Shown: positions 17,732-42,533 of the stretch, in pieces
Layout of the letters: each line of letters starts with the position of its first letter
How positions within the stretch are numbered: position 1 is the stretch's first letter
Assembly: GCA_021794425.1 (NCBI GenBank)
Contig: JAJYQV010000037.1
Span: forward strand, 1 to 42,533
DNA from: a bacterium
GTDB taxonomy: Bacteria > Patescibacteriota > Minisyncoccia > Phycocordibacterales > Phycocordibacteraceae
Reading direction: 5' to 3'
Length of the DNA stretch: 42,533 bases
Notes under the pieces: model-generated
Told to the model about the DNA's origin: nothing
The model's database searches: none
Seen by the model: the letters and a program-made list of their open reading frames with translations, nothing else
Program-made: the position numbers and the translations under genes

Positions 17732-17807
17732 TGGTGGGCGTGCCTGGACTCGAACCAGGAACCGCAGAGGTATAAGCTCTGTGCTCTAACCATTGAGCTA
17801 CACGCCC
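17732..17807 (-). tRNA. tRNA-Ile(UAU), CCA encoded
   Basis: GGGCGTG TA GCTC AATGGTTA GAGC A CAGAG CTTATAC CTCTG CGGTT CCTGG TTCGAGT CCAGG CACGCCC A CCA. Confidence 0.85.
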
Positions 17808-28691: not shown

Positions 28692-29312
28692 TCAACTTGC
28701 ACGCAGAGCGGCTGGGTAGAAGTCGTACCAATCACCGTCGAGCCAGAATAGGACCAAACCCCAAGCGTCGCCGTTCCAGGAAAGGCCACGAACGTACAAG
28801 CAGTTATCGCGGTTGCGATACACCGTACCCCAGAAGAAAATGTGGCGAGCAAGACCACTTTCGTCTTTCTTCCAACCCTCGGGAATGAGCTCGGGGTGTG
28901 CGAGCAGGAAATCAAGCAGGTTGGCGTTGAAGACGGGCTTACCTGCGAGTACCTTACGGAGCTTATGGCCCCGGATGCCGTTCTTCTGACCCGCTACGAC
29001 AAAGCCGACTTCGACCTGGGCGGGATCGAACTTCCACAGCCCGCCCTTCTGGTGTTCGTCAATGACAGTGCCTTCTTTCTCCCACTGATTGAACGGCGCG
29101 GCGTCGAGGTCAACAATGACGTGCTCGACCTGTTTGAAGGCAGCGTAGCCCGTCAAGACGTCGTAGAGACCATCGAGAACGCATTCATTATGGCAAAGCT
29201 TATGAAAGAGTTCGGGAGTAAACTTCCTCCCATCACCCATCCGATTCATTGCCATTTCCAGTTCGTGACTTCGTGCGCCACTGATTACAAACCCGTCTTC
29301 TTTCGTCGACAT
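28692..29312 (-). CDS. Hypothetical 206-aa Trp-rich protein
   Basis: Long ORF with host-like codon usage and no motif I can place (FFWGTVYRNRDNCLYVRGLSWNGDAWGLVLFWLDGDWY). Confidence 0.55.
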   Translation of the reverse strand: MSTKEDGFVISGARSHELEMAMNRMGDGRKFTPELFHKLCHNECVLDGLYDVLTGYAAFKQVEHVIVDLDAAPFNQWEKEGTVIDEHQKGGLWKFDPAQVEVGFVVAGQKNGIRGHKLRKVLAGKPVFNANLLDFLLAHPELIPEGWKKDESGLARHIFFWGTVYRNRDNCLYVRGLSWNGDAWGLVLFWLDGDWYDFYPAALRAS

Positions 29313-29385
29313 GTTCGTTCTCCTTGCGTTTGCAACACGTTCTTGCGAACTCGTTGCGCGCTAGCGGGCCTTACCTCAGTGCGGG

Positions 29386-29440
29386 GGTTTGCCATAGCAG
29401 AAAACGGCCTACAATAAGCCCCTTTCTGCTATGGCAAACC
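29386..29440. repeat. 18-nt perfect inverted repeat in a divergent intergenic region
   Basis: GGTTTGCCATAGCAGAAA (29386-29403) and TTTCTGCTATGGCAAACC (29423-29440), with a 19-nt spacer. Confidence 0.9.
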
Positions 29441-29592
29441 GTGCAAGTTGAAGTCAAAGAACCGCGTTGTTTCTGTTATAATAGTATAGCACACTATATG
29501 TGTGATTGTCAATAGACCTCCGTAATCCACAGGTGCCCCCGGAAACCGCACTGGTACCATTCCCCTATTAGCCATCGATAGCCCGTTACCCC

Positions 29593-30213
29593 ATGGAATC
29601 AATCATTACCTCACTCAATTGGCGCGAAGCGACCAAAGCGTTCGACCCCGAGAAGAAGCTCTCCGCAGAGCAGCTCGACACGCTCCTCGAAGCAGCCCGC
29701 CTCGCGCCATCTTCCTACGGCCTCCAGCCGTGGAACTTCGTCGTCGTCACCGACCCCGAAGTGCGCGCGAAGCTGCGCGAGGCTTCGTGGGGCCAAGCGC
29801 AGGTGACCGACGCCTCGCACCTCATCGTGCTCGCCGCAAAGACCCCGAGCGATGCGCTCGTCGACGAATACATCGCCGACATCGCAGAGACGCGCGGCGT
29901 CACGACCGAGTCGCTCGACGGCTTTTCTCAGATGATGAAGGGCATGCTCGCGGGCCTCGACGAGGCCGCGCGACTCACTTGGGCCAAGAAGCAGGTCTAC
30001 CTCGCGCTCGGAGTGCTCGCCACCGCCGCGGCCGAGCTGCGTATCGACGGCTGCCCGATGGAAGGGTTCGACGCAGGCAAGTACGACGAGATCCTCGGGC
30101 TCACCGAGCTCGGTCTCTCTGCGACCGTACTCTTCCCGGTCGGCTTCCGCGCCGCCGACAACGGCATGACGAAGGTCCGCTTCCCGAAAGAGAAGCTCGT
30201 CATTGAGAAGTAG
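29593..30213 (+). CDS. NAD(P)H nitroreductase family protein
   Basis: RRATKAFD-like N-terminus (WREATKAFDPEK), APSSYGLQPWNFVVV and a C-terminal PKEKLV. Confidence 0.85.
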   Translation: MESIITSLNWREATKAFDPEKKLSAEQLDTLLEAARLAPSSYGLQPWNFVVVTDPEVRAKLREASWGQAQVTDASHLIVLAAKTPSDALVDEYIADIAETRGVTTESLDGFSQMMKGMLAGLDEAARLTWAKKQVYLALGVLATAAAELRIDGCPMEGFDAGKYDEILGLTELGLSATVLFPVGFRAADNGMTKVRFPKEKLVIEK

Positions 30214-30221
30214 GCGAGCCG

Positions 30222-30345
30222 GCGCGCGTGATGCCGTTTGCGATAGGCTGCAGACAGGGCGCGACACGTCTGCGCGGCCTTGCGGAGCCGACAAAGACGT
30301 GTCGGGGAACCCGCGCAGCCGGCAAGCAAACGGCATCACGCGCGC
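30222..30345. repeat. 124-nt nested hairpin element
   Basis: The outer 20-nt perfect arms are GCGCGCGTGATGCCGTTTGC (30222-30241) and GCAAACGGCATCACGCGCGC (30326-30345). The inner arms are CGACACGTCT (30262-71) and AGACGTGTCG (30295-304). Confidence 0.9.
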
Positions 30346-30354
30346 TACACGACC

Positions 30355-30394
30355 GGAAACGCGCGGCGGGCCCTCGGGCCCGCCGCGCGTTTCC
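30355..30394 (+). terminator. Long GC-rich hairpin, putative terminator
   Basis: GGAAACGCGCGGCGGGCCC-tcg-GGCCCGCCGCGCGTTTCC. The downstream U-tract is weak. Confidence 0.5.
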
Positions 30395-30427
30395 TATTCC
30401 GCGCGAAGGCGTGTAGAGTGCCCATAT

Positions 30428-31192
30428 ATGAAAGCCCCGAAAAAGAAGCCGGAGCAGCCCGTCGAAAGCGAGTGGCCGATGCGCCTCAACAAGTACCTCG
30501 CGAAGGATGGCGTCGCCACGCGCCGCAGAGCCGATGAGCTCATCGCCCGCGGGCAGGTGCGGGTGAACGGCGTGGTCGCGACGCTCGGCGACAAAGTGAC
30601 CGAATCTGACACCGTCGAAGTAGTCGGCAAAGCGTCACCGAAAAAGTTCCTCTACTTCGCCTACCACAAGCCCGTGGGCGTCATCACCCACTCGCCCCAA
30701 CTCGGCGAGGACGACATCAAGCTCCGCATCACCAAAAAAGGCGCGTCAGCGAGCGAAATGAGCGATGTCTTCCCCATCGGCCGGCTCGACAAAGACTCAA
30801 GCGGTCTCATCATCTTGACCAACGACGGACGCATCACCGACCGGCTCCTCTCCCCGCGCTACGAGCACGACAAAGAGTACCGCGTGCGCACGCTTGAGCC
30901 GCTCCGGCAGAGCTTCAAAAAGACGATGGAAGCGGGCGTCAACATCGAGGGCTACACGACCGCACCCTGCACCGTGCACAAGACCGGCCCCAAGAGCTTC
31001 ACCATCACGCTCACCGAGGGCAAGAAGCATCAGATCCGCCGCATGGTCGCTGCGCTCCACAACCAGGTCGTCGAGCTCAAGCGCACGCGCATCCTCAATA
31101 TCCGTCTCGAAGACCTCAAGCCCGGCACCTGGCGCCCCATCACCGGCAGCGAGCTTGCCGCTTTTCTCTCCGAAATCGGCATGAAAGACTGA
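30428..31192 (+). CDS. Pseudouridine synthase, RsuA/RluB family
   Basis: S4 domain (RLNKYLAKDGVATRRRADELIARGQVRVNG) and catalytic motif PIGRLDKDSSGLIILTNDG. The start was trimmed to MKAPKKK (ATG at 30428). Confidence 0.88.
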   Translation: MKAPKKKPEQPVESEWPMRLNKYLAKDGVATRRRADELIARGQVRVNGVVATLGDKVTESDTVEVVGKASPKKFLYFAYHKPVGVITHSPQLGEDDIKLRITKKGASASEMSDVFPIGRLDKDSSGLIILTNDGRITDRLLSPRYEHDKEYRVRTLEPLRQSFKKTMEAGVNIEGYTTAPCTVHKTGPKSFTITLTEGKKHQIRRMVAALHNQVVELKRTRILNIRLEDLKPGTWRPITGSELAAFLSEIGMKD

Positions 31193-31227
31193 CTGAAGGG
31201 AGCCGCGAGAGGCCCCCGAGCAGGGGC

Positions 31228-31256
31228 TTGACAAATTTCAATATATAGTATACATT
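31228..31256 (+). promoter_or_regulatory. Sigma70-like promoter upstream of the GNAT-like gene
   Basis: TTGACA (31228-33), 17-nt spacer, TACATT (31251-56). A GGTCGGGGCAG/CTGCCCCGACC hairpin (31272-31295) and an AGGAGG RBS follow. Confidence 0.4.
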
Positions 31257-31330
31257 TGTTTTAGGTTTGGAGGTCGGGGCAGGACTGCCCCGACCCCCTT
31301 GTGACCATTTGAAAGAAGGAGGAAGATATC

Positions 31331-31909
31331 ATGGCCCTTATTGTTGTTCGCACCGCAGAGCGCTTCGATCTCAACAAGGTCGCAGAGCTCAGAGCAGCCG
31401 CTTACGGCGCCCGCGGGTATTGCCCCCGGGAAACGGGGGCAAAAGAACAACATTTAAGTGCCCCTTCTTCTTCCATCGTCCTCGTCGCAGAGAAAAACGA
31501 CGAGATCGTTGGGACCATTTCGGTCCTGAGCGGGAAGGAAACCCCCGCTGACAAAGCATTCCCGGAAGAAATGACTGGTGTTCGTTCCGAATCGGGGCGA
31601 ATCATCAGCTACGGCTCTTTCGCCGTAAAGACGGGAATGTGGGAAGGGTCCGTCGGCCTCGCCCTCATTCGAGAGGCGTTGTCGATAACCGACACAGATG
31701 TCGGCACAGCGGCAATCATCACGAATCCGAGACATTCTTTGTTCTACAAAGCCCTCGGTTTCGAGAAAATTGTACACTGCCCCGGTGTGCCGGAGCTCCT
31801 CGGAGCCCCTGCCGACCTGATGGTCTCGCGGGGCGAATCGTTTCAAGATTTACTCAGGCGGGCCCGGACGGGGATTCCACTGTACGAAAGAAAAAGAAGG
31901 GGGTGTTAA
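31331..31909 (+). CDS. GNAT-fold acyltransferase, FeeM / N-acyl amino acid synthase-like
   Basis: 192 aa with ...IVGTISVL...GSFAV...ITNPRHSLFYKALGFEKI, reminiscent of the FeeM-type family. The RBS is AGGAGG. Confidence 0.45.
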   Translation: MALIVVRTAERFDLNKVAELRAAAYGARGYCPRETGAKEQHLSAPSSSIVLVAEKNDEIVGTISVLSGKETPADKAFPEEMTGVRSESGRIISYGSFAVKTGMWEGSVGLALIREALSITDTDVGTAAIITNPRHSLFYKALGFEKIVHCPGVPELLGAPADLMVSRGESFQDLLRRARTGIPLYERKRRGC

Positions 31910-31970
31910 ACTCCCTCACCTCAAGGCGCCGCACTCACCTGTGGCGCCTTTGTATTTCAACACCCGCTCC

Positions 31971-32567
31971 TCAATCCTCCGCAAAAATCTCCCGCAGGAG
32001 CGCGTCGCGTTCTTTCGGCGTGACTTCCGTCGCCGAGTACGGCACAACCGTCGCTTCATGCGCAGCTTCTTTGATGCTGCGCATTTGCGCCGAGGTCTCT
32101 TTCTGATTGAGCTTGTCTACCTTGTTTGCAATGATGAGATACGGATGTTCCTTTTCGCGCAGCACGCGAATCATCTCGCTGTCGAAGTCGGTCAGTCCCG
32201 CTTTCGCGTCGAGTATGATGACGACCTTGCTCACGGCCGCATCCGAATACATGAGATACCAGAGGATGAGTTTCTCGATGCTCTCTTTCTCTTTCGGCGA
32301 TCGCTTGGCGTAGCCGTAGCCCGGCAGGTCGACGAAATAGCACTTCTTATTATTGATGCCGAAGAAATTGATCTCGGTCGTCTTGCCGGGCCGATTACTC
32401 GTCTTCACCAGGTCTTTCCGGTTCACGAGCGAGTTGATCGTACTCGACTTGCCCACATTAGAGCGGCCGACAAACGCATATTCCGGCACGCCGTCGTAGA
32501 GGATGTCATCCGTCCCAATGATCCCCTTCAGGAACTCCGCCGAATTGATCTTGGTGATGTTGCTCAT
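31971..32567 (-). CDS. engB: Ribosome biogenesis GTPase YihA/EngB
   Basis: GRSNVGKSSTIN, DLPGYG and NKVDK. Confidence 0.9.
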   Translation of the reverse strand: MSNITKINSAEFLKGIIGTDDILYDGVPEYAFVGRSNVGKSSTINSLVNRKDLVKTSNRPGKTTEINFFGINNKKCYFVDLPGYGYAKRSPKEKESIEKLILWYLMYSDAAVSKVVIILDAKAGLTDFDSEMIRVLREKEHPYLIIANKVDKLNQKETSAQMRSIKEAAHEATVVPYSATEVTPKERDALLREIFAED

Positions 32568-32656
32568 TATTCAAACACTACCCTACTCCGCGATTTTTGC
32601 GAGCCAGCATCGCATATTCTAGCAGGATAGCCCTTCCTCGCAGCTGGTCCTCGCTC

Positions 32657-33181
32657 TCAGTACTTACGACTGTCGTACGCCCAGTGGAGGAGCGCCTGGC
32701 GCTGACGCGGCCGGCACGAGCCGCCGCCCTTCCGGCAGTTCTTCTTCACCTGCGCCACGTGCCGCGCCATCGCCCGCCAGCGCTTGATCTGCCGTGCGTC
32801 CTCCTCTGGCAGCCGACGGCCCAGGAAGTAGCGGCAGTACCACTGAAACCATCCGCGCGGGTCGTGCGCCTCGTTTATCCAGCCTTTCGCCCGCCACACC
32901 GAGAGCGGCTGCGACGCGTTCACGCCGAAGTAGTTGAGCGCCGCATCGTGCACGAAGCTGCCGGGCTCCTGGAACTTTGCTTTCGCGAACCAGCTCTTGG
33001 GGAACTCGTCGCCACAATCGCGCATGTACACCCCGCCGAAGACCCCGAGCGCGAGCATCTCGCGCGGCGAGAGCTCGGGCTTAAATTGCGGATCAAAGCC
33101 GCGCCCTGCGGGCGCGGCCAGCACATACCGATACCCACGCTGCATCGTATCGTTCACCACCACAGTCTTCATGCTCTTCAT
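32657..33181 (-). CDS. Conserved-looking hypothetical protein (174 aa)
   Basis: The GVFGGVYMRD...DPRGWFQWYCRYFLGRRLPEEDARQIKRW motif block looks like a conserved family, but I cannot name it. Confidence 0.55.
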   Translation of the reverse strand: MKSMKTVVVNDTMQRGYRYVLAAPAGRGFDPQFKPELSPREMLALGVFGGVYMRDCGDEFPKSWFAKAKFQEPGSFVHDAALNYFGVNASQPLSVWRAKGWINEAHDPRGWFQWYCRYFLGRRLPEEDARQIKRWRAMARHVAQVKKNCRKGGGSCRPRQRQALLHWAYDSRKY

Positions 33182-33392
33182 TCTACCTTGTCCACACCTA
33201 GGGCGCGTTCCACAGCTTGCCTATAGCTGATCAAAAAAATGAGGGCCCCGCAGGACCCCCACTCAAGTCATCACTCCTCATTCACGCCGCTTTTCGTTCT
33301 GCTGCATGGAACCAGCCAAGCGGGATCCGCGCCGCGGCCAGAGCCCGCAAACGTTTGGCCTCGCCCAATCGCAGCATCACTTCAAAACAGGT

Positions 33393-34295
33393 TTAGCCGA
33401 TGTCGTCGTCAAAGAAGTCTTCGTCTAGCTGCTTAGCGGTATACATGGTCTTGGGTTGGACACCAATATCGTAGCGATACATCAAGTCGACAAGCACAGC
33501 GCCGTCAATGAGTTTAATGGCATGGTCGGCGTCCTTCGCTTTCGCGATGGCCGAATCATCAAACGACGACGTGGTAACGAAAATGCCCTTCTTGGTTCCG
33601 CGGCTCATCGCGCCGATAAATTCGCGAATGAGTGGCTCGCGTACTTTATTATCCTGCGCGTATCGTTTTGCCTGGATAAATATCTTCTCAAAACCGAGCG
33701 AGTCCTGGTTGATGATGCCGTCGATACCTCCATCGCCCGACTTTGCAGTTACAGTAAAATCACCATACCCCATTTTACTAAAGAGTTGACCAACGATGCG
33801 TTCAAAGAAATAAGGGTCAACGGCTCGAAGCTTTTCGAGCAGATCATCTTTCACTTGGTTCTCAAGCGAGGTGATGCCAGTGTCAATCAAGTCTTCGGGC
33901 GAGTCGTTTCCGTCTTCTGCCTCGGCCACAGCACTCGATTCTGCCTTGCGCGAGTGCCGGTTTTTGAGAAAGTCTTCGTCATGCAGAAGCTCGGTGATGC
34001 TTAGACGCCCGGCGGCGAGCGCCTTGCGCCCCTTCTCGGTAATTTGTACCATCGCGCGCTCCGGCTGCGATACAAATTCGCCCTGCTTCAAGTACGCTTT
34101 AGCCCACCCAATACGATTGAGCAATAGTGGATCGCCGCTTTTGGTCATGCGAGTGAGGAGCTCTTCCGGCAGGTCGCTATAGAACTGATCGCGTACTCGT
34201 TTGCGCAAGTCATTGTAGTGCCAGAGCTTGCCGTCGCTGAGCACCTGCAAAATCGGAAGAAACGTCTCGTGATACTTCGGCATCGCTCGTGTCAT
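33393..34295 (-). CDS. mrr: Mrr-family type IV restriction endonuclease
   Basis: N-terminal Mrr_N winged helix (YHETFLPILQVLSDG...) and C-terminal Mrr_cat (FERIVGQLFSKMGY...GDGGIDGII...IFIQAKRY). Confidence 0.88.
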   Translation of the reverse strand: MTRAMPKYHETFLPILQVLSDGKLWHYNDLRKRVRDQFYSDLPEELLTRMTKSGDPLLLNRIGWAKAYLKQGEFVSQPERAMVQITEKGRKALAAGRLSITELLHDEDFLKNRHSRKAESSAVAEAEDGNDSPEDLIDTGITSLENQVKDDLLEKLRAVDPYFFERIVGQLFSKMGYGDFTVTAKSGDGGIDGIINQDSLGFEKIFIQAKRYAQDNKVREPLIREFIGAMSRGTKKGIFVTTSSFDDSAIAKAKDADHAIKLIDGAVLVDLMYRYDIGVQPKTMYTAKQLDEDFFDDDIG

Positions 34296-34326
34296 GAGCC
34301 TATTAGATCACTTTTGATCTTGCTGC

Positions 34327-34375
34327 GCAAAGGCTTCGTGGAGAATGGATTGTTTGAGGGTGGTGAGGTCAGCTT
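34327..34375. repeat. Direct repeat copy 1 (fossil coding fragment ...ADLTTLKQSILHEAFAQ)
   Basis: About three-quarters identical to 34719-34767, including a 17-nt identical core GCAAAGGCTTCGTGGAG. Confidence 0.85.
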
Positions 34376-34392
34376 GGTAAGTTTGAATACGC

Positions 34393-34704
34393 TTACGCGA
34401 CAAAAAATTCCACGATATCGCCGTCGAAGAGCGGCGAGTGCGGCTTTGGCGGAAGCCCGTTGATGGTGAGTTTCAGGGCACCCGGAGGGTATTGCTTCTC
34501 AATCTCCGGATGCGACTCGAAGACGCTCTGCAACAGGAAGAGGAACGTACCGCCCTCGCCCATCCACATCATCTCCTCCGCTTTCCCGGTGATGCGCTGG
34601 AGCGCGTCGTCGTACCGTATCGTCAGGCGCATCGGCGTCGGCACCCCCGGCATCTTGCGCATCTCCTCGACCATCCGTTGCATCTCCTCTTCGTTCATAC
34701 CCAC
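34393..34704 (-). CDS. MoaD/ThiS-like beta-grasp protein lacking a C-terminal Gly-Gly
   Basis: The MRLTIRYDDALQRITGKAEE...EGGT...LL...HPE...LTINGLPPKPHSPLFDGDIVEFFVA pattern mirrors MoaD/ThiS spacing. There is a 24-aa acidic/Met-rich N-terminal extension. Confidence 0.5.
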   Translation of the reverse strand: MGMNEEEMQRMVEEMRKMPGVPTPMRLTIRYDDALQRITGKAEEMMWMGEGGTFLFLLQSVFESHPEIEKQYPPGALKLTINGLPPKPHSPLFDGDIVEFFVA

Positions 34705-34718
34705 ATTCTACCCCGCCC

Positions 34719-34767
34719 GCAAAGGCTTCGTGGAGGAGGGACTGCGTGAGGGCGGCGAGGGCGGCTT
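34719..34767. repeat. Direct repeat copy 2 (fossil coding fragment ...AALAALTQSLLHEAFAG)
   Basis: Lies immediately 3' of the res stop codon and is out of frame with res. Confidence 0.85.
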
Positions 34768-37379
34768 TAAATTCGAAACTGCTCGAAGACTTCCTCAAAC
34801 GCTTCGTTGTCATCGTGCTTGAAGAACGGCAAACCGATGACTTTGTACTGTTCGTTCTCGAAAAGCGTTTCCACCTTTCCTTCTGCCGCAATTTCCTTCA
34901 AGAAGTCTTCTTTCCACTGGTCTTGCTTCACGAGGTGTGCGCCTTTGGGCTCGATGAAGAGCTGATGCACAATCGCCTGCTTGCTTCCCTTCTCGCGCAA
35001 GAAAAGCACGAAGTCCGGCTCGACACGCGCGCCGTCAGAGAAACGATAAATCGGAAAGAGTCGCTCGTTGCGCAGGAGTCGCACGTCTTCATATCGCTGT
35101 TCCAAATCCGCCATGGCGTCGTGTATGAAATGCACGAGCTCTTTTTCCTCTCGCGTGCCGTAGTTTTCATCGTAGACATACCAGTCTTTCTTTGAGAGGT
35201 CGAGCTGAAGCGAAGACGTGCGCGCCGCGCGCATCGGCACGCCGAATTCTTGGTCGCCTCCTTCGCTCACGGCGACCTTGATATGCTTATCCCGTACGAC
35301 TTTGTGAATCGGCCTGGGCAAAAACTCTTTCGTGCCCTCGTACTCGCCGGTATTGTTGGTCACGAGCTGTTCAATCTGTCGCAGCGCCTCTAGGGCGGCC
35401 TGAAGCACCTCGCTGCGAGTCACCGCTACCACGTCTTGAAGCTCGCCGCGCACGGCTATCGTCGCTCCGCCGAGGTATGCCTCGGCCGTAATGAACTCCT
35501 GCACAGAAGCCAGATGCGGGAAGAAGCGCGACAAAGAATCAAATCGGTAAAACGGCAGACGGCTGAGCGCTTCACGCCAGAGTGCCGCGTCAATCGGCGT
35601 AGTGTCCCGGCTCGTTTTCTCGCGCACCACCTGAGCTCCCGCTTCTTTGAAAACGGCAACATCGCTCCCGCCGCCGCGTTGCAAGTCAAAGACGAATCGC
35701 TGGGGAATACCCGGCACGTCTTTGAGCCCCTTGATGTGCTTCCGGCCGGTCGAGCGTTTCTCGTTCAGGAACACCTGCCCCGTCTTCCAAAATGCCGTTT
35801 TCTTGATCCCTTCTTTCACTTGTATGTCGTACTCGCGCAGGTCCTCGGGCTTCGCCATCGCGCCCGTCTTCACGAGCGCATTCTTGATCTCGGCGATGTA
35901 CCGCGAATCGTATTTCGAGTGATAGTGCAGCTGCTCCAGGATCCGCAGCTCGTTCCCGGTGTCCTCGTCATACTTGCGCACGAAGCGGTCCTCGTCATCT
36001 GCCGAGAGCGAAAACGGCCAGTAGCGCGCACCGCGCCCGACGAGCTGCGCCTCGGCCATCGTCGCCGGCGAGATCGTGCGCCCGCCCGACTGCCGCGTCT
36101 CGTAGAGGCGCACGATGTCGAAGAGATTGAGCACATCCCACCCCTCGTTCAGCTTGTCGACCGCAAATATGGCGCGGACGCGATTATGCTTCTCCTCAAG
36201 AGAATTCACCTCGAGCTGTTTCTGCTCCGAGTCGTCTTTCGAGTTGACCGACCGGCATTTCTCCGGATCGAAGTCGTCTTTGATCTCGCGCGCCAGGTCA
36301 GACAGCGTGATGTGTTTCTCGTCGAAAAATGCGAACGCGTCTGCGAGCGCCGGCTGGTCGTCAGACGCCTTCGGCCGTAGCGCTTTTATCGTAGACGCTT
36401 TGAGGGTGCGCACGGCCTCATGGAATGCCGCCTCGAAATCCTTTGAATCCTGAATGGACTTCGATTTGAAAAGTACCACCGGCTTCAGCTGTAGGCCATG
36501 GTGCTCGGCCACTTTCCGGCGATACTGCGAAAGCACGACGGCACTGAGCGCCCGATCCATCGGGTCCAAGTTCCGCCCGGCGATCTCTATCTCTTTCGAG
36601 AATCCATCGGAGCGGAATTGGGCGAGATCGTAGCGGTAGATGAGCTTGTCTTCGTACTTCTTGGCAATGTCTGCATTCTGCGTATCGATGGTCGCCGTAA
36701 ATTCAAGCATCACGTTGCGCGGATTCTTGCGGAGCACGCGAGTAATCGTCCCCTCCCAGGTCTGCCGCTCTATCTCTTCGTCTACCGAGGGCTTCCCGGC
36801 CCGTGTGAGCGCGTTCACGTGATGCGCTTCGTCCGAGAGGAACACAACGTCGCGGTCGTCAAAATCTTCCTCGGTGAGCACGTTTTCCCGCGGTGCGTTC
36901 ATGCGCGCATGAAGCCCCTGGATGGTCGTGAAGAGGATGTTGATGCCGTCCGGATCGGTCGAGCTGAAGTTCTCTACCGCGCGCACTGCCACTTCCCGGC
37001 CGCTCACCTCGATCTTATCTGCGAAGAGGTATTTGCTCGACTGCGGGTTGAGGAAGTTGTCGCGGGTCTTCTTGATGATGTTCGTGCTGTTTACGAAAAA
37101 CACGAAATTGCGATATCCGAGTTTATAGAGGTGCACTATCGCCCCCGCCATCACGAGCGTCTTGCCCGAGCCGGTCGCCATGTTGAAGAGCAGATGCACG
37201 GGTGTCTGCCGGCCATGGTACTCGCCCAAGTAAAACTCCAGCCGCCCGAGTGCCTCCTTCTGATACTCACGCAGCACCCGCCCCGATGCCAAGCTTGCCG
37301 CCACGCCCTCCGGCACTCGGCTCTTGAAATAACCGTCTCCGAGCGCCCGCGTCAATGAGTCAAAATCTTGGTAGAGCAT
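34767..37379 (-). CDS. res: Type III restriction enzyme Res subunit (SF2 helicase + PD-(D/E)xK nuclease)
   Basis: MATGSGKT Walker A, SDEAHH, and a C-terminal EPDFVLF...IEPKG nuclease-like motif. The start was trimmed to MLYQDFDSL, 1 nt after the rhuM stop. Confidence 0.85.
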   Translation of the reverse strand: MLYQDFDSLTRALGDGYFKSRVPEGVAASLASGRVLREYQKEALGRLEFYLGEYHGRQTPVHLLFNMATGSGKTLVMAGAIVHLYKLGYRNFVFFVNSTNIIKKTRDNFLNPQSSKYLFADKIEVSGREVAVRAVENFSSTDPDGINILFTTIQGLHARMNAPRENVLTEEDFDDRDVVFLSDEAHHVNALTRAGKPSVDEEIERQTWEGTITRVLRKNPRNVMLEFTATIDTQNADIAKKYEDKLIYRYDLAQFRSDGFSKEIEIAGRNLDPMDRALSAVVLSQYRRKVAEHHGLQLKPVVLFKSKSIQDSKDFEAAFHEAVRTLKASTIKALRPKASDDQPALADAFAFFDEKHITLSDLAREIKDDFDPEKCRSVNSKDDSEQKQLEVNSLEEKHNRVRAIFAVDKLNEGWDVLNLFDIVRLYETRQSGGRTISPATMAEAQLVGRGARYWPFSLSADDEDRFVRKYDEDTGNELRILEQLHYHSKYDSRYIAEIKNALVKTGAMAKPEDLREYDIQVKEGIKKTAFWKTGQVFLNEKRSTGRKHIKGLKDVPGIPQRFVFDLQRGGGSDVAVFKEAGAQVVREKTSRDTTPIDAALWREALSRLPFYRFDSLSRFFPHLASVQEFITAEAYLGGATIAVRGELQDVVAVTRSEVLQAALEALRQIEQLVTNNTGEYEGTKEFLPRPIHKVVRDKHIKVAVSEGGDQEFGVPMRAARTSSLQLDLSKKDWYVYDENYGTREEKELVHFIHDAMADLEQRYEDVRLLRNERLFPIYRFSDGARVEPDFVLFLREKGSKQAIVHQLFIEPKGAHLVKQDQWKEDFLKEIAAEGKVETLFENEQYKVIGLPFFKHDDNEAFEEVFEQFRI

Positions 37380-37380
37380 G

Positions 37381-38421
37381 TTACTTCTTCTTGTGCCGTG
37401 TCGGCTGCGGCGCTTGCGCTTCTGACAATCCTTCCGCCTTTTCGATAAACTTATCAAAGTCCGAGACGATACGCTGAGTCTTGTCGAACGCAGCGTACTC
37501 CTCGTGCGCCTTGCGCTCCGCCTGGTCGTGAGAGACCGACCCCTTACCATCGAGTACCCGGTACTCGTTGAACGCGAGGAATTTATTTACCGACTCTGCA
37601 AGCGCTTCCATCGTGAAGACCGTCTGGCCCTCGATGAGCCGCTCGATGTAGTCGAAGTAGCCGGACACGGTGCGCTCGAGCCGCTTGATGTCCGCCTCGG
37701 GCAGGTAGTTCTTGGCGATAGCCGCGTCGGATTTGAGAATCCGGCCATCCGGCGCGTGCTTCCAGGTAGCGAGTCCCATGTTGGCCTTACTCCGGTCGGC
37801 ACCCGCATAAATGAGCTCAGCGGCTGTGCGACCCGAGATGGCATAGTGGAACTTGTTCTGCACCATCGCGTAGAAGTTTTTCGTGAGATCTGATGCCGGA
37901 TCGTAGTCGATACTGCACTCGGCAAAGATATCCGTGATCTGCTGATAGATGCGCCGCTCGCTCGCGCGGATGGAACGCACGCGCTCAAGAAGCTCGCGGA
38001 AGTAGTCCTGTCCGAGGCGGGTGCCGTTCTTCAAGAGTTCGTCGTCGAGCGCGAAACCCTTGATGATGTAGTCGCGCAGCACCGTCGTGGCCCACTTACG
38101 GAAGTGGGTCGCCTGGATGGAGTTGACGCGGTATCCCACCGAGATGATGGCGTCGAGATTGTAAAATTGCGTCTCGTATGACTTGCCGTCTGCGGCAGTT
38201 GTTCGAATTTTTCGAATAACTGAATCTTCTTGTAACTCGCCATTCTTTATGGTTTCTTTGAGATGGTAGTTGACCGTGTTGACCTCCACTCCGAACACCT
38301 CCGCCATCCGCTTCTGCGTGAGCCAGACCGTCTCGTCTTGCACCAGCACCTCGACCGCCACCGCCCCCTCGGGCGACTTATAGAGCACGAACGTCTTTTC
38401 TTTTGCCGGCGTTTTTTTCAT
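37381..38421 (-). CDS. rhuM: RhuM-family (Virulence_RhuM) protein
   Basis: ETVWLTQKRMAEVFGVEVNTVNYHLKE...YNLDAIISVGYRVNSIQATHFRKWATTVLRDYIIKGFALDDELLK is the canonical RhuM N-terminal block. Confidence 0.8.
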   Translation of the reverse strand: MKKTPAKEKTFVLYKSPEGAVAVEVLVQDETVWLTQKRMAEVFGVEVNTVNYHLKETIKNGELQEDSVIRKIRTTAADGKSYETQFYNLDAIISVGYRVNSIQATHFRKWATTVLRDYIIKGFALDDELLKNGTRLGQDYFRELLERVRSIRASERRIYQQITDIFAECSIDYDPASDLTKNFYAMVQNKFHYAISGRTAAELIYAGADRSKANMGLATWKHAPDGRILKSDAAIAKNYLPEADIKRLERTVSGYFDYIERLIEGQTVFTMEALAESVNKFLAFNEYRVLDGKGSVSHDQAERKAHEEYAAFDKTQRIVSDFDKFIEKAEGLSEAQAPQPTRHKKK

Positions 38422-38882
38422 ATGTGAGGATGTTCGTTATCCGCTTTCACCTCGAGCCGCTCGACACCGTATTCCTCGAACTCCTCGGACCATTTCGCTT
38501 CGAGCTCCCACACCCGCTCGACCCGTTCTTCGTGCGACATGACGGCCCGGAGCGCCGGCGTCGTCATGCGCTCAAAGTCGCGCTCGGCGAGCACTTCGCC
38601 AAGCTCTTCCCACATCGTGTGATCGTCATACCGCTCGATGAGCGCGCGAGTCGTCGGCTCGTCGTCCATATCGTAGGTGGCGTGATAGCCGATTCGTTCG
38701 TCGTAGCCGACAAATTTCTCGAACCCCGCCTCCTTGGCAAAAGAGAAGATATGATTGCGTACGGCTTTTATCCCTTCATCCATCTCCATATCCGCTTCGC
38801 AGATAGCGTTCGCCATCCAGTCGGCCATATAGGTCGCCCGCATCAGGTCCCAGTATTGCTCTCTAGTCAGCTCGATTTTCAT
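38418..38882 (-). CDS. Hypothetical strongly acidic 154-aa protein
   Basis: By my count about 39 Asp/Glu versus about 18 Lys/Arg. There is a 4-nt ATGA overlap with rhuM. Confidence 0.55.
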   Translation of the reverse strand: MKIELTREQYWDLMRATYMADWMANAICEADMEMDEGIKAVRNHIFSFAKEAGFEKFVGYDERIGYHATYDMDDEPTTRALIERYDDHTMWEELGEVLAERDFERMTTPALRAVMSHEERVERVWELEAKWSEEFEEYGVERLEVKADNEHPHI

Positions 38883-39123
38883 AGCAAGTTTGTTATATCA
38901 TTCCTCTTCGGCATACACCCGCGCACAACTTTAGCCGACTTATGCACACCCCGCACGCGGCAATTGATGCCGTGCCACGATTGTGCTACTCTCTGGGTAG
39001 GAGCATGCAATAATAGCTTTTTGAGCGCTTTGGTGTTCCCTCGGAGTATCCGAGGCATGGATTGAGTAATCAAGCCATAAAACCGAAGGATGTCGCCCAA
39101 GGAGACGCTGCTTCTACCAAAAG

Positions 39124-39143
39124 AGATCTGCGCACGCAGGTCT
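39124..39143. terminator. Bidirectional terminator after DUF3800
   Basis: AGATCTGCG-ca-CGCAGGTCT hairpin flanked by AAAAG and TTTTTTG. Confidence 0.6.
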
Positions 39144-39174
39144 TTTTTGCTTTGTGGATGCGACACGAGAGCGT

Positions 39175-39825
39175 TCATACGGCAAAAAATTCCTGCCCCT
39201 CCGCCAAAAGATTGTTCTTGAGCGCCTTATAGTACTCGTCTCCAGACGGCCCGGCTTCATGATAGCGCGCGAGCGCTCCGGCAATCCAATCGACAATCTG
39301 CATGTTCGCATTTGCTGTCGAATCGACCATTTCGACTTGCACCAACGTGCCCGGCGCGCAGTGCGGCGCAAGCCGGGCAATGATAGCCTCTTCAAATTCG
39401 CCTTTCTTCATTCCCTTCAAAGATCGCCGGTCACAAAAGACATGCACGAGCAAATCGTCTTGCGGCAGATATTGCTCAAGAATATCTCCGACGATATTGG
39501 TATACAGGACACCGCTATCGATCTTCTGCTTCTTTGTCCGGTACGTCGCAGGAATATTCTTGCGCAAAAGATACCCATAGCGGACGCGCACGTCGAGACG
39601 CGCGATATGCTTGAGTGTTCGCAGACGTAATGCCTCGTCAATGCCGGCGGCAGACCACTTGATCTCGCTCTGGAACCGCATACGGCGCGGGAACTTTGAC
39701 CGGAACCATGAACGCATCGCTTTGTCCGTGCGGCGCTGCTCGCCGACGGTAAAGGTGGCGACCACAAAATACTGTTCGTGATTGTGTTTGGTAAAGTTGC
39801 CGCTCTCGTCGAGAAAGATGTACAT
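39175..39825 (-). CDS. DUF3800 family protein
   Basis: N-terminal MYIFLDESGNF and C-terminal VDSTANANMQIVDWIAGAL match DUF3800 hallmarks. The start was trimmed from 39843. Confidence 0.65.
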   Translation of the reverse strand: MYIFLDESGNFTKHNHEQYFVVATFTVGEQRRTDKAMRSWFRSKFPRRMRFQSEIKWSAAGIDEALRLRTLKHIARLDVRVRYGYLLRKNIPATYRTKKQKIDSGVLYTNIVGDILEQYLPQDDLLVHVFCDRRSLKGMKKGEFEEAIIARLAPHCAPGTLVQVEMVDSTANANMQIVDWIAGALARYHEAGPSGDEYYKALKNNLLAEGQEFFAV

Positions 39826-39827
39826 AG

Positions 39828-39941
39828 TTAAGTGTCGCTGCACTTCAGGGCTACCACGCCCTCCGGCACCCGGCTTTTGAAAAAGTCGGGCCCGTTTACA
39901 TCCAGCGACGAATCAAATTTTTGATAGAGAGATTGGGACAT
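39828..39941 (-). pseudogene. Truncated 5' remnant of a second type III res gene (37 codons)
   Basis: MSQSLYQKFDSSLDVNGPDFFKSRVPEGVVALKCSDT* aligns with the Res N-terminus MLYQDFDSLTRALGDGYFKSRVPEGVAASL. The 16-nt string CCACGCCCTCCGGCAC occurs in both copies. The ATG is 4 nt after the upstream stop. Confidence 0.75.
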
Positions 39942-39945
39942 AGAT

Positions 39946-41112
39946 TTATTTTCCTTTCAGGAGATTATTTAGGCCGTGCCGCGCTCTCTCTATCAGATCA
40001 TCATAGGTCAAGATCTCAATCCAGTGCGTATACGCCATGAATCTTCGCAGACGTTTCGGGTCAGCGTTAACTGCTGTTTTGGTACCGGTACCATTTTGAA
40101 TCTCCCGGCGACCGATTAATAAGAATCCTTTTGGGCGGTAATAATTACCGCGTGTGTCGGTCAGGATTTCTTTTGAAGTCTCGTCGTCGTTTTGTTGTCG
40201 ATATTCACTGTAATAATACTCGAGATACCCGGTAAGTTGCCCTATTGCCTCACTAAGCTTGCGCGATGCAAATTGACGTCCTTGCGTATCCTCACGAAAA
40301 AGTTCCTCGGATGGAAGCTTTATCTCGAGTACGTCACTCATTCCGTCAATTCGTTTGAGTCTTGCGTCAGGAATGCCAGCTTCTCCTGCTCCCCTAACAT
40401 CCAGGGTCTCGTACTCGGGACCAAATATCCACGGCATCTTCCTCAATTCCGTCTGAATATCAGCAACCTCTTTTATACCTTTCTCGCCTATCAACTTTTC
40501 AAAAGAGTCCAGTGCGGATAATTTTTCTTCTATCTTCTCATGCGAAAGCCCTTTCTTTATCAACTCGGGTATATCTAAATCCGAACGAAGCAGCCCTTCG
40601 CTATATATAAAATTCACGATGTCTTTGCCCTTATCAGTGGCAAGTATGGTCTTCAATTGTTTTACTGTGTCTTCGTCCGCGTTTATTTGTGTAGACTCTA
40701 TTTGAAGCTTTTTCGCATCAATGCTAGGTAAATCAAGACTGCTGAGAAATTTGAAAAGACCAAATATTTTTTGGTAGGAAAGATACGGCAATTTCAACCC
40801 CTCCGTTCCATCGTAAATAAATTCTCTTTTCCGATTATACTTATACTTCGTAATCAGCACGTCTTCTATTTCTCCATGTTTTTTAATGTAGGTAAATCGA
40901 ATCTTGTATCTAGTTGGCGCTAAAATAGCATCCACTTCACGCGGACTTCCATCTTCATATCGAGTGATGACTGAAAAATACTTCCCCGCATCACTTTTCT
41001 TAAATGGGTCTACAAGAAGAGTGTCTACGTCACGATTGATCGTGTACTTCGGATCCTCTGGATCGAAGTATTCGTTTTGAGTAAAATCTCCCACTTCATT
41101 AGTCCCGTCCAT
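39946..41112 (-). CDS. Shedu-like (DUF4263, SduA-type) PD-(D/E)xK nuclease
   Basis: The C-terminal block PWIFGPEYETL...GIPDARL...SDVLEIKLPSEELF...AIGQLTGYLEYY...PKGFLLIGRR fits the DUF4263 pattern. The N-terminal ~230 aa are unassigned, and G+C is low. Confidence 0.6.
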   Translation of the reverse strand: MDGTNEVGDFTQNEYFDPEDPKYTINRDVDTLLVDPFKKSDAGKYFSVITRYEDGSPREVDAILAPTRYKIRFTYIKKHGEIEDVLITKYKYNRKREFIYDGTEGLKLPYLSYQKIFGLFKFLSSLDLPSIDAKKLQIESTQINADEDTVKQLKTILATDKGKDIVNFIYSEGLLRSDLDIPELIKKGLSHEKIEEKLSALDSFEKLIGEKGIKEVADIQTELRKMPWIFGPEYETLDVRGAGEAGIPDARLKRIDGMSDVLEIKLPSEELFREDTQGRQFASRKLSEAIGQLTGYLEYYYSEYRQQNDDETSKEILTDTRGNYYRPKGFLLIGRREIQNGTGTKTAVNADPKRLRRFMAYTHWIEILTYDDLIERARHGLNNLLKGK

Positions 41113-42533
41113 AAAATTCTTTGTTTAGCTTTTTGTCGGCCGGGGAGACATGGTAGGTGACGTCTTCTATCTCGCTCTTGTTCACATAGAGCTGGTTGTA
41201 GTCGAGGGACTCGAGGATGAAGCGCTTTTGATCGACGAGGGGGAGGGCGGCAAAATCTTTTGCCTCTTTGTTGAATTCCTTCATGTCGAGCTTGTAGCTC
41301 AAGAAGCCCTTCTCTTGTATCTCGTCCCAAACTTTCGCAAGCTCTTTCGCGTCCTTTGCCTTTTCAACCTTCTCTTTGAAGACCTGATTGAGCGGCATCA
41401 GCTCAGTGTAGACAAAAGAATCCTTCGATCCACACAACTCGAGCGCCTTAACAACGCGCGGAACAGTACAGAACTGCACATAGCCCATCTGCTCTGCAAG
41501 AATAAATTTCCTATTCCCGCCGTCCTTATTCAGCTCGATCACTGCATGCGCCGTAGTGCCACTCCCGCCAAAGAAGTCGAGAACGATGGCATCTTTGTCC
41601 TCCCCAACAACAGCGTGAAGACAATCATAGACATTCCACAACGACTTTGGGAAATCAAATTTGCAACTTGGAACTAGCTTCCGCACAATTTTCGTCCCAT
41701 ACTCATTCGCGTCATACCGCGGGTCTTCCCAAACAGTTCGATATACACCGAAGTCTTTACCTATTTCAATTTCGTATCCCGTCTTCGTGTGTTTTGCTTG
41801 CAAGAGTCCTTTGATGTCATCGGCACTCTGACGTGCGTAACGCCATTTTCTCTCAATTCCATTTTTGTCTATCGGATATACATAATACTCCTCACCTCTT
41901 TTCTCAGTCTGACATTGTGGATGCTGACTATCCGGCAGCACTTCACCGAAGCCTACAATCTGATCGTCCTTAACAATTACTGGATAAAAACAATTCTTTG
42001 CATCTGCCCGCGACGATTCACCGCCCCAATTTCTGAAGTTGGACAGACTTATCTCTTCTTCCTCAATCTTTCTACTTCCTATAGTCTTTAGCCCTTTTGG
42101 AATAACAAAGAGTGCGTATTCGTGCACATACGAGAAGTTGGTACCTTGTACCCCGCGAGGGTTGTGCACAATCGTGATGCAGTGGATTTCATATCCCGCA
42201 AACATTTCCTTCAACAGCAAAGTGAGGGCTGCTTGTTCATTCTCATCAATCGCAACAATCATCGCCCCCTCTTTCATCAAGAGCTTCTTTGCGACTTCAA
42301 GACGATTGCGCATGAAGGTGAGCCATGTCGATTCGTTGAAATTATTATTGTAGGCGAAAGTGTTCGACTTGCTGTCAGGATTATACGGCGGGTCGATGTA
42401 AATGAGCTTTACCTTGCCGGCGAAGCGGGCTTTGAGTGAGTGGAGGGCGAGGAGGTTGTTGCCCTTCACGATGAGGTTGTCTTTGATATCGCCGTTCTCG
42501 TCGGTCTTGAAGCCGTCGAGCGGGTGCTCGCCC
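41099..42533 (-). CDS. mod: Type III restriction-modification Mod methyltransferase (N-terminus beyond the window)
   Basis: The frame stays open to the window edge (...DNLIVKGNNLLALHSLK). It has motif IV IYIDPPYN followed by motif I FFGGSGTTAHAV, and low G+C. Confidence 0.85.
   Translation of the reverse strand, partial: GEHPLDGFKTDENGDIKDNLIVKGNNLLALHSLKARFAGKVKLIYIDPPYNPDSKSNTFAYNNNFNESTWLTFMRNRLEVAKKLLMKEGAMIVAIDENEQAALTLLLKEMFAGYEIHCITIVHNPRGVQGTNFSYVHEYALFVIPKGLKTIGSRKIEEEEISLSNFRNWGGESSRADAKNCFYPVIVKDDQIVGFGEVLPDSQHPQCQTEKRGEEYYVYPIDKNGIERKWRYARQSADDIKGLLQAKHTKTGYEIEIGKDFGVYRTVWEDPRYDANEYGTKIVRKLVPSCKFDFPKSLWNVYDCLHAVVGEDKDAIVLDFFGGSGTTAHAVIELNKDGGNRKFILAEQMGYVQFCTVPRVVKALELCGSKDSFVYTELMPLNQVFKEKVEKAKDAKELAKVWDEIQEKGFLSYKLDMKEFNKEAKDFAALPLVDQKRFILESLDYNQLYVNKSEIEDVTYHVSPADKKLNKEFYGRD

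What the first reader, a model, noticed from the sequence alone, without database searches (positions are those of the whole stretch)
39828..39941. Duplicated res 5' end marks a recombination junction that split the type III system
Four nt after the Shedu-like stop there is an ATG opening a 37-codon frame, MSQSLYQKFDSSLDVNGPDFFKSRVPEGVVALKCSDT*. It is clearly homologous to the N-terminus of the full-length Res at 37379 (MLYQDFDSLTRALGDGYFKSRVPEGVAASL).

Both DNA copies share the 16-nt string CCACGCCCTCCGGCAC. Similarity ends just beyond it, where the remnant runs into DUF3800.

The low-GC mod/Shedu-like unit therefore once continued into its own res. That res was truncated, and a DUF3800/acidic/RhuM/res block of different composition now follows. 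The present mod and res may not be a cognate pair.
Basis: seen in the sequence. Interest (0 to 1): 0.65.

Follow-up and report, generated by a model that had tools for sequence, protein, structure and literature searches.

The report
Leftover res gene start, reused for recombination
The 37-codon frame is a genuine leftover of the start of a type III restriction gene, sitting at an old recombination joint inside a restriction-modification operon packed with extra defence genes; sister strains carry the same joint with different upstream genes, so this is an ordinary but instructive recombination scar.

Summary
Window 39828-39941 (- strand) is an intact 37-codon ORF, 4 nt after the Shedu stop and 2 nt before the DUF3800 start. 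It is a real Res N-terminus: tblastn E=4e-7 against the resident Res, and 86% identity over 28 aa to Res P0114. Four independent assemblies reproduce it.

Sister-strain contigs L098 and L099 hold the same chromosomal locus, the same DUF3800-acidic ORF-RhuM-res block and the same joint. They differ upstream. They carry a KAP-NTPase instead of Shedu, another mod target-recognition domain (TRD), and a stub whose first 79 nt copy the resident res (92%).

The truncation joint therefore formed once and is shared. The stub's 5' part travels with the upstream cargo by homologous crossover inside that block.

The mod-res gap is a recurrent cargo slot: 22 of 75 related loci carry inserts. No other surveyed locus has a second res start. 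The stub is a recombination scar and a working homology arm. There is no evidence of a peptide function. Moderate-to-low interest; new member of a known kind.

The parts
41099..42533 (-). Type III mod (methyltransferase). It is cut by the window end; the full gene is 637 aa in L002. It is a mosaic of a host-like N-terminal third, an imported TRD and a conserved C-terminal region.
   Evidence: Pfam N6_N4_Mtase. TypeIII_RM_meth plus N6_N4_Mtase on the full gene in L002. PADLOC MTase_III. GC3 by segment. Against L009 mod, the N and C ends are conserved and the centre is unrelated.
39946..41112 (-). Shedu-like nuclease (SduA_C). This is the left cargo of the mod-res slot and overlaps the mod stop by 14 nt.
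   Evidence: Pfam SduA_C 9e-16. PADLOC SduA. GC3 0.42. Replaced by a KAP_NTPase gene in L098 and L099.
39828..39941 (-). res 5' stub: an intact 37-codon ORF. This is the finding.
39883..39941 (-). Allele-specific 5' part of the stub. It is a 'type 2' res start and travels with Shedu.
   Evidence: 82-87% nt identity to the res 5' ends of L009 and L011. Unrelated to the corresponding part of the L098 stub. Five synonymous differences between window and L002.
39854..39882 (-). 29-nt conserved block encoding FKSRVPEGV. It is one copy of the direct repeat and the point where homology to sister strains L098 and L099 resumes. It is the inferred crossover site.
   Evidence: Repeat D2. blastn boundary at window 39882. 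Only 2 mismatches in the next 1000 nt.
39826..39853 (-). Tail after the illegitimate joint, unrelated to res. It supplies the in-frame TAA and a 2-nt spacer before the DUF3800 ATG.
   Evidence: Alignment of stubs against res 5' ends: similarity stops after GGCGTGG. No similarity to anything in about 95 loci.
39175..39825 (-). DUF3800 gene, first gene of the right cargo block.
   Evidence: Pfam DUF3800 2e-12. PADLOC PDC-M04A, weak.
38418..38882 (-). Acidic 154-aa ORF with no family hit. It overlaps the RhuM start by 4 nt.
   Evidence: Homologs lie next to res in L011 and L095.
37381..38421 (-). RhuM-family gene. Its stop is 1 nt before the res ATG.
   Evidence: Pfam Virulence_RhuM 6e-102. PADLOC PDC-S05. 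A RhuM in the same position in L090.
34767..37379 (-). Full-length type III res (870 aa).
   Evidence: Pfam ResIII. PADLOC REase_III 6e-145. Full-length alignment to more than 100 Res proteins.
37301..37379 (-). First 79 nt of res: the second arm of the duplication that brackets the right cargo block.
   Evidence: The L098 stub is 92% identical to this stretch, with all differences in codons 1-26 synonymous.

Best explanation
The ORF is a stub: the start of a type III res gene, from the ATG to the first base of codon 27 in resident-res numbering. It is fused at an illegitimate joint to ~25 nt of unrelated sequence, which closes the frame 2 nt before DUF3800.

Structure. The stub and the first 79 nt of the full res form a direct duplication. 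This duplication brackets a 2.5-kb cargo block (DUF3800, acidic ORF, RhuM) inside the mod-res gap of one type III R-M operon.

Origin (inferred). The structure is what one insertion event would leave. The incoming DNA was anchored by homology in res. The other end was joined illegitimately, either by homology-facilitated illegitimate recombination of a linear fragment or by single-crossover integration of a circularised fragment.

Shown. The joint is shared by sister strains, so it formed once.

Later exchange (junction shown, mechanism inferred). The segment from inside mod to the stub (TRD, mod 3' end, left cargo, first ~59 nt of the stub) was exchanged between lineages by homologous recombination. 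The right-hand crossover lay in the 29-nt conserved block of the stub. This gave a Shedu + 'type 2' stub allele (this window) and a KAP-NTPase + 'type 1' stub allele (L098, L099).

Most likely order. The type-1 stub is original and the window's chimeric stub is secondary.

Present role (inferred). The stub is not a restriction subunit. It is a scar that still works in cis as a homology arm for swapping the left cargo. It could also allow pop-out of the right cargo, restoring an intact res. It probably passes ribosomes from the upstream cargo gene to DUF3800 by stop-start coupling.
For: Stub is a Res N-terminus.

Same joint, different 5' part, in L098 and L099. These hold the same chromosomal locus: flanks are 99.7% identical and the right block is 96.6%.

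Sharp boundary at window 39882. Upstream identity is 52%, about random. Downstream there are 2 mismatches in 1000 nt.

The L098 stub is 92% identical to the resident res over 79 nt, and similarity ends exactly at the joint.

The block is resident-type: 28/29 to L098 res, against 22/26 plus a 3-nt gap to L009 res.

The left boundary of the swap lies inside mod. L005 combines Shedu with the L098-type TRD end, so the modules assort independently.

L092 has a res 92% identical whose homology to the window starts 3 nt before the ATG, behind a different gene. The res start is therefore a recurrent recombination boundary.

The mod-res gap is a recurrent cargo slot. 22 of 75 related loci carry 347-2880 nt there, including RhuM, an acidic-ORF homolog, DUF3800 and toxin-antitoxin-like genes.

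Genes are packed stop-to-start, and no convincing terminator was predicted on the - strand between mod and res.
Against: - The order of events is not proven. The 4 nt after the block (TAGC) match L009's type-2 res, so truncation of a type-2 res followed by import of the KAP/type-1 allele remains possible.
- Both left cargos are equally low in GC3 (0.42 and 0.43), so composition does not give polarity.
- No donor locus (mod-Shedu-res, or DUF3800 with its original upstream sequence) was found.
- A 29-nt crossover tract is near the lower limit for RecA-type recombination (own knowledge).
- Only two allele classes were seen.
- Transcription, translation of the stub and R-M activity are untested.
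- All differences in the res-like part of the stubs are synonymous. This could instead mean selection on the peptide.
Confidence: 0.78

Rival explanations
1. An ancestral mod-Shedu-res(type 2) operon was hit in place by the DUF3800-acidic-RhuM-res(type 1) block, truncating Shedu's own res. The KAP-NTPase/type-1 stub allele of L098 arose later by homologous replacement.
For: The window stub is type 2 over its first ~59 nt. Its 'VVA' after the block matches P0114.
Against: The block next to the joint is resident-type and contains a GGC codon absent from P0114's gene. The L098 stub matches the resident res over the whole 79 nt, right up to the joint, which this order would leave as coincidence.
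Confidence: 0.2
2. The stub encodes a small functional peptide, for example a Res N-terminal mimic that modulates Mod-Res assembly, and it is kept by purifying selection.
For: The ORF is intact with a Shine-Dalgarno-like AAAGGA upstream in all three allelic versions. There are 5 of 5 synonymous differences between window and L002, and 5 of 5 differing codons (6 nt) are synonymous between the L098 stub and L098 res in codons 1-26. The unrelated tail carries 2 nonsynonymous polymorphisms.
Against: Polarising with a second res shows that most of those changes lie on the branches of functional res genes. Only 2 codons are assignable to the stub branch. The window/L002 differences form a 7% patch between otherwise identical flanks, which is typical of recombination with another functional res start. 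No other locus among about 90 keeps such a peptide. No family hit.
Confidence: 0.06
3. Chance similarity or a chimeric assembly.
For: None beyond the short length of the DNA match to the resident res (29 nt).
Against: E=4e-7 to 3e-12 at protein level against a window-wide search. 82-87% nt identity to other res starts. The junction is reproduced in L002, L003, L005 and L006 from different samples, and its tail in L098 and L099.
Confidence: 0.01

Closest known systems
Type III restriction-modification operons (mod followed by res, EcoP15I-like organisation; own knowledge)
   Same: Mod has TypeIII_RM_meth and N6_N4_Mtase domains. Res is an 870-aa ResIII helicase-nuclease. Both are on the same strand with mod first. 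In 53 of 75 relatives the two genes abut.
   Different: Here 3.7 kb lie between mod and res: four accessory genes plus a res stub. No sequence-level hit of this Res to any solved structure.
Accessory defence genes embedded in R-M loci: prrC inside the type IC EcoprrI locus (PMC12707154), and Shedu genes found within type I-IV R-M loci (bioRxiv 10.1101/2023.08.10.552793: 602 of 5,499 Shedu genes)
   Same: Shedu, RhuM (PADLOC candidate PDC-S05), DUF3800 and, in the sister strain, a KAP NTPase sit between the R-M subunit genes. The closest Shedu relatives sit between hsdS and hsdR of type I operons.
   Different: Two separate cargo sets lie in one type III slot, divided by a res stub. Functional linkage between the cargo and the R-M enzyme is untested.
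Sequential displacement arrays with orphan modules in T6SS effector-immunity clusters and rhs/CDI loci, proposed to arise by homology-facilitated illegitimate recombination (PMC5361080; HFIR in E. coli: PMC3240628)
   Same: Incoming DNA is anchored by a conserved gene segment. An illegitimate joint forms at the other end. The displaced gene pieces are retained and can recombine again.
   Different: Here a 5' gene start, not a 3' toxin tip or an immunity gene, is retained. The locus is an R-M operon. The mechanism is inferred from the end product only.
Allelic shuffling of target-recognition domains in type III mod genes (phasevarion modA alleles; own knowledge, not checked in the library)
   Same: Conserved mod N- and C-terminal regions flank an unrelated central TRD in L002 against L009 and L098. 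The closest full-length Mods (same TRD, 72-75%) pair with distant Res proteins (44-56%).
   Different: No simple-sequence repeats or phase variation were examined. The swap here also carries downstream cargo.

Membership tests
Type III R-M system (whole locus) | Mod with a type III methyltransferase domain set | tested here: met
   PF12564 plus PF01555 on the full-length gene in L002. PF01555 on the window part. PADLOC MTase_III 9e-131.
Type III R-M system (whole locus) | Full-length Res (helicase plus C-terminal nuclease region) | tested here: met
   870 aa. PF04851 1e-29. PADLOC REase_III over residues 3-861. 100% coverage alignments to relatives. The nuclease motif was not inspected separately.
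Type III R-M system (whole locus) | mod and res adjacent in one operon | tested here: inconclusive
   Same strand with stop-start packing. However, 3.7 kb and a 292-nt intergenic gap lie between them, and no transcription data exist.
Type III Res protein (the 37-codon ORF itself) | Homology to the Res N-terminus | tested here: met
   E=4e-7 to the resident Res. 86% to P0114 over 28 aa.
Type III Res protein (the 37-codon ORF itself) | Helicase and nuclease domains present | tested here: not met
   Only 26-31 res-derived codons, then an unrelated tail and a stop. No other res fragment in the window.
Shedu (SduA) | SduA_C / DUF4263 nuclease domain | tested here: met
   PF14082 9e-16. Several PADLOC SduA models.
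Product of homology-facilitated illegitimate recombination or single-crossover integration | One homologous end, one non-homologous joint, duplicated anchor segment | tested here: met
   A 79-nt direct duplication of the res start brackets the cargo. Similarity stops abruptly at GGCGTGG.
Product of homology-facilitated illegitimate recombination or single-crossover integration | Microhomology at the illegitimate joint, judged against the donor sequence | not testable with these tools
   No donor with the original sequence upstream of DUF3800 was found.

The most novel reading that the evidence does not exclude
The res stub is not just tolerated but maintained. On this reading it is a cis-acting docking arm that splits the mod-res slot into two independently exchangeable sub-slots. 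New defence cargo can then be swapped in from any related type III locus without touching res. The stub also acts as a translational coupler for the downstream cargo, and its direct repeat allows reversible pop-out of the right block.
Probability: 0.12. Interest if true: 0.55.

Novelty: new member of a known kind. Interest (0 to 1): 0.33.

Why it matters
The locus gives a nucleotide-level example of how defence genes accumulate and are exchanged inside a restriction-modification operon. The conserved ends of mod and res act as recombination arms, and a 29-nt conserved block appears to have sufficed. A failed or one-sided exchange leaves a gene stub that goes on serving as an arm. For annotation, the 37-codon ORF should be marked as a res fragment, not a gene. 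The mod-to-res stretch should be read as one operon-embedded defence islet: Shedu or KAP-NTPase, then DUF3800, an acidic ORF and RhuM. It does not reveal a new kind of system.

Tried and rejected
- **In-situ recent tandem duplication as origin of the window's own stub:** rejected for the window allele. Only 27/29 nt match the resident res, whereas other res starts match at 82-87%. The idea was revived for the L098 allele.
- **Uninterrupted mod-Shedu-res relative:** none found. The genome scan gave one type I locus. The closest Shedu homologs sit in type I or type II contexts. None of about 90 type III loci contain this Shedu.
- **Second res starts in other loci:** none in L009-L091.
- **Mod phylogeny as a test of cognacy:** uninformative. 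Full-length similarity follows the TRD, which is mosaic. The Res body tree is star-like at 66-76% and does not follow the N-terminal type.
- **Composition as a test of which allele is older:** uninformative, since KAP GC3 is 0.43 and Shedu 0.42.
- **Other gene remnants in the tail or in the 292-nt DUF3800-acidic spacer:** none found.
- **Solved structure for mapping the N-terminal peptide:** no hit.
- **Promoter and terminator scan:** at background level.
- **Window mod ORF:** The ORF listing gives it a GTG start at 42469. The frame in fact runs off the window end.

Full report
**1. What is in the window**

All relevant genes lie on the minus strand, in this order:
- mod, 41099 to beyond 42533. 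It runs off the window end and is 637 aa in the strain variant L002.
- A Shedu-like gene, 39946-41112.
- The 37-codon ORF, 39828-39941.
- A DUF3800 gene, 39175-39825.
- A 292-nt spacer.
- An acidic 154-aa ORF, 38418-38882.
- A RhuM-family gene, 37381-38421.
- A full-length type III res, 34767-37379, 870 aa.
- About 470 nt further on, an Mrr-type gene, 33393-34295.

The genes are packed stop-to-start:
- mod and Shedu overlap by 14 nt.
- The Shedu stop is 4 nt before the ORF's ATG.
- The ORF's stop is 2 nt before the DUF3800 ATG.
- The acidic ORF and RhuM overlap by 4 nt.
- The RhuM stop is 1 nt before the res ATG.

The rest of the window is ordinary chromosome: RecG, FtsH, TypA, a pseudouridine synthase and transporters. 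GC3 there is about 0.8.

**2.

The ORF reads MSQSLYQKFDSSLDVNGPDFFKSRVPEGVVALKCSDT*. A tblastn of the first 45 residues of the resident Res against the whole window finds it with E=3.9e-7 (17 of 27 identical). The next best hit has E=0.19.

More telling, other full-length Res proteins of the same clade start almost like the ORF. P0114 begins MPSQLLYQKFDSSLDVNGTNFFKSRVPEVVA, which is 86% identical over 28 aa (E=3e-12). P0116 is 72% over 29 aa. At DNA level the ORF is 82.5% identical over 80 nt to the res start in L009 and 87.5% over 64 nt to that in L011.

The clade has two styles of N-terminus:
- 'Type 1', MLYEDFDSLTRT..., found in the resident Res and most relatives.
- 'Type 2', M.SQ.LYQKFDSSLDVNG..., found in P0114, P0116 and the ORF.

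These styles do not follow the tree of the rest of the protein, which is star-like at 66-76% identity.

The junction is not an assembly artefact. Contigs from four other samples (L002, L003, L005, L006) span it.

**3. The mod-res gap is a recurrent cargo slot**

I collected 83 related loci. In 53 of the 75 that hold both genes, mod abuts res. In 22 there are 347-2880 nt between them. The window's 3.7 kb is the largest gap seen.

Cargo found elsewhere in this slot includes:
- a RhuM gene directly upstream of res (L090);
- homologs of the acidic ORF (L011, L095);
- DUF3800 (L095);
- toxin-antitoxin-like pairs;
- a 934-aa protein;
- a GHKL-ATPase-like gene (L092);
- several proteins of unknown function.

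In L092 the res is 92% identical to the window's. Homology begins 3 nt before the ATG and ends about 80 nt after the stop. The res start is therefore a recurrent recombination boundary.

Shedu genes inside R-M loci of types I-IV have been reported (bioRxiv 10.1101/2023.08.10.552793). The closest relatives of this Shedu sit between hsdS and hsdR of type I operons.

No locus other than this one has a second res start.

**4. The decisive comparison**

The exact DUF3800 protein also occurs on L098 (a 70-kb contig from another sample) and on L099. These contigs hold the same chromosomal locus. The flanks are 99.7% identical to window 28813-33170. The DUF3800-acidic-RhuM-res block is 96.6% identical to window 39882-34768.

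Upstream, however, they differ in three ways:
- A KAP-NTPase gene replaces Shedu.
- The mod TRD is different.
- The stub reads MLYQDFDSLTRALGDGYFKSRVPEGVVAPKCSDT*.

The first 79 nt of that stub are 92% identical to the resident res start. All differences in codons 1-26 are synonymous. Similarity ends inside codon 27, after GGCGTGG, and the same tail as in the window follows.

Between the window and L098, sequence upstream of window 39882 is unrelated (52% identity). From 39882 onward there are 2 mismatches in 1000 nt. Position 39882 is the first base of the 29-nt block.

On the left, L002 and L098 are 100% identical up to about mod codon 90. They are then 90-98% identical, lose similarity in the TRD, and are 93.5% identical in the last 310 nt of mod. 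L005 combines the Shedu allele with the L098-type end of the TRD, so TRD and cargo assort independently.

**5. Interpretation**

The truncation joint (res nt 79 fused to the tail) is shared by both alleles, so it arose once.

The stub and the res start form a direct duplication that brackets the 2.5-kb right cargo. Two routes would leave this product: homology-facilitated illegitimate recombination of a linear fragment anchored in res, or single-crossover integration of a circularised fragment. I cannot tell these apart because no donor was found.

One of the two stub alleles must be secondary. It would have been made by homologous replacement of the segment from inside mod to the stub, with the right-hand crossover in the 29-nt block.

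I favour the type-1 stub as original, at roughly 0.6 against 0.25. Two points support this. The block itself is resident-type: 28/29 to L098 res, with a GGC codon that L009's gene lacks. The L098 stub also matches the resident res right up to the joint.

Composition does not help, because both left cargos are equally low in GC3.

**6. Is the peptide functional?**

The ORF is intact, with an AAAGGA upstream, in all three allelic versions. All differences in the res-derived part are synonymous: five between window and L002, and five codons between the L098 stub and L098 res. The tail has two nonsynonymous polymorphisms.

Polarising with a second res shows that most of these changes lie on the branches of functional res genes. 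Only two codons can be assigned to the stub branch.

The window/L002 differences form a 7% patch between otherwise identical flanks: no differences in the 1167-nt Shedu gene and one in DUF3800. That pattern fits repeated recombination with functional res starts better than selection on the peptide. I give a peptide function about 6%.

Stop-start spacing makes it plausible that the stub relays ribosomes from the upstream cargo to DUF3800, which has no obvious ribosome-binding site of its own. This is an inference from sequence.

**7. Comparison with what is known**

Three things are already established:
- Accessory defence genes embedded in R-M loci, such as prrC in EcoprrI (PMC12707154) and Shedu in R-M loci (bioRxiv 10.1101/2023.08.10.552793).
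- TRD shuffling in type III mod genes (own knowledge).
- Retention of displaced gene pieces after one-sided recombination, as in orphan arrays in T6SS and rhs loci with HFIR proposed as the mechanism (PMC5361080, PMC3240628).

This locus is a clear new instance in a type III operon, with the unusual detail that a 5' gene stub divides the slot and has been used as a crossover site. It is not a new kind of system.

**8. Verdict**

- Novelty: new member of a known kind.
- Interest is about 0.33.

Noticed in passing
window 34326-34375 and 34718-34767; ORF 34393-34704 (-): A 50-nt direct repeat (82%) brackets a small minus-strand ORF between the res stop and the Mrr start. The ORF is about 61% identical in translation (tblastx) to an 86-aa ORF downstream of res in L092. 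In one frame the repeat reads ..QS(L/I)LHEAFA.., which from memory resembles the conserved end of type I HsdS proteins. That resemblance was not tested.
   Followed up: partly
window 33170-34768 versus L098 15062-16297: The stretch downstream of res, including the Mrr-type (type IV) restriction gene, is absent from the sister strain. That strain has a 105-aa ORF and a Peptidase_S49 gene there. This is a second variable module, flanking res on its 3' side.
   Followed up: partly
window 38418-38882 (-): The acidic 154-aa ORF has no family hit. It shows 15 nonsynonymous against 16 synonymous differences between window and L002, concentrated in codons 78-106. Homologs lie next to res in L011 (32%) and L095 (46%). 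It overlaps the RhuM start by 4 nt, so it may be a partner of RhuM.
   Followed up: partly
L005 1-41 versus L098 8017-8057 and L002: One strain variant combines the Shedu cargo with the L098-type end of the mod target-recognition domain. TRD and cargo therefore recombine independently within the conserved mod 3' region.
   Followed up: partly
L001 9959-11062; L007 746-1894; L008 2958-4133: The closest relatives of this Shedu protein (42-57% identity) sit between hsdS and hsdR of type I R-M operons. Many homologs come from candidate-phyla-radiation-type metagenome bins.
   Followed up: partly
window 17732-17807 (-): ARAGORN calls a tRNA-Ile with anticodon TAT, an uncommon way to read AUA in bacteria.
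   Followed up: no
window 38883-39174: The 292-nt spacer between DUF3800 and the acidic ORF is identical in window, L002 and L098 apart from one base. It contains a perfect 6-bp hairpin (CCTCGG..CCGAGG). No gene remnant, promoter or terminator match was found there. The 99-codon ORF that the ORF listing reports at this position (38879-39178) has no family hit.
   Followed up: partly
L092 1-441: A res 92% identical to the window's is preceded by a different cargo gene whose C-terminus looks like a GHKL/HATPase domain. This was judged by eye, with no domain search.
   Followed up: no
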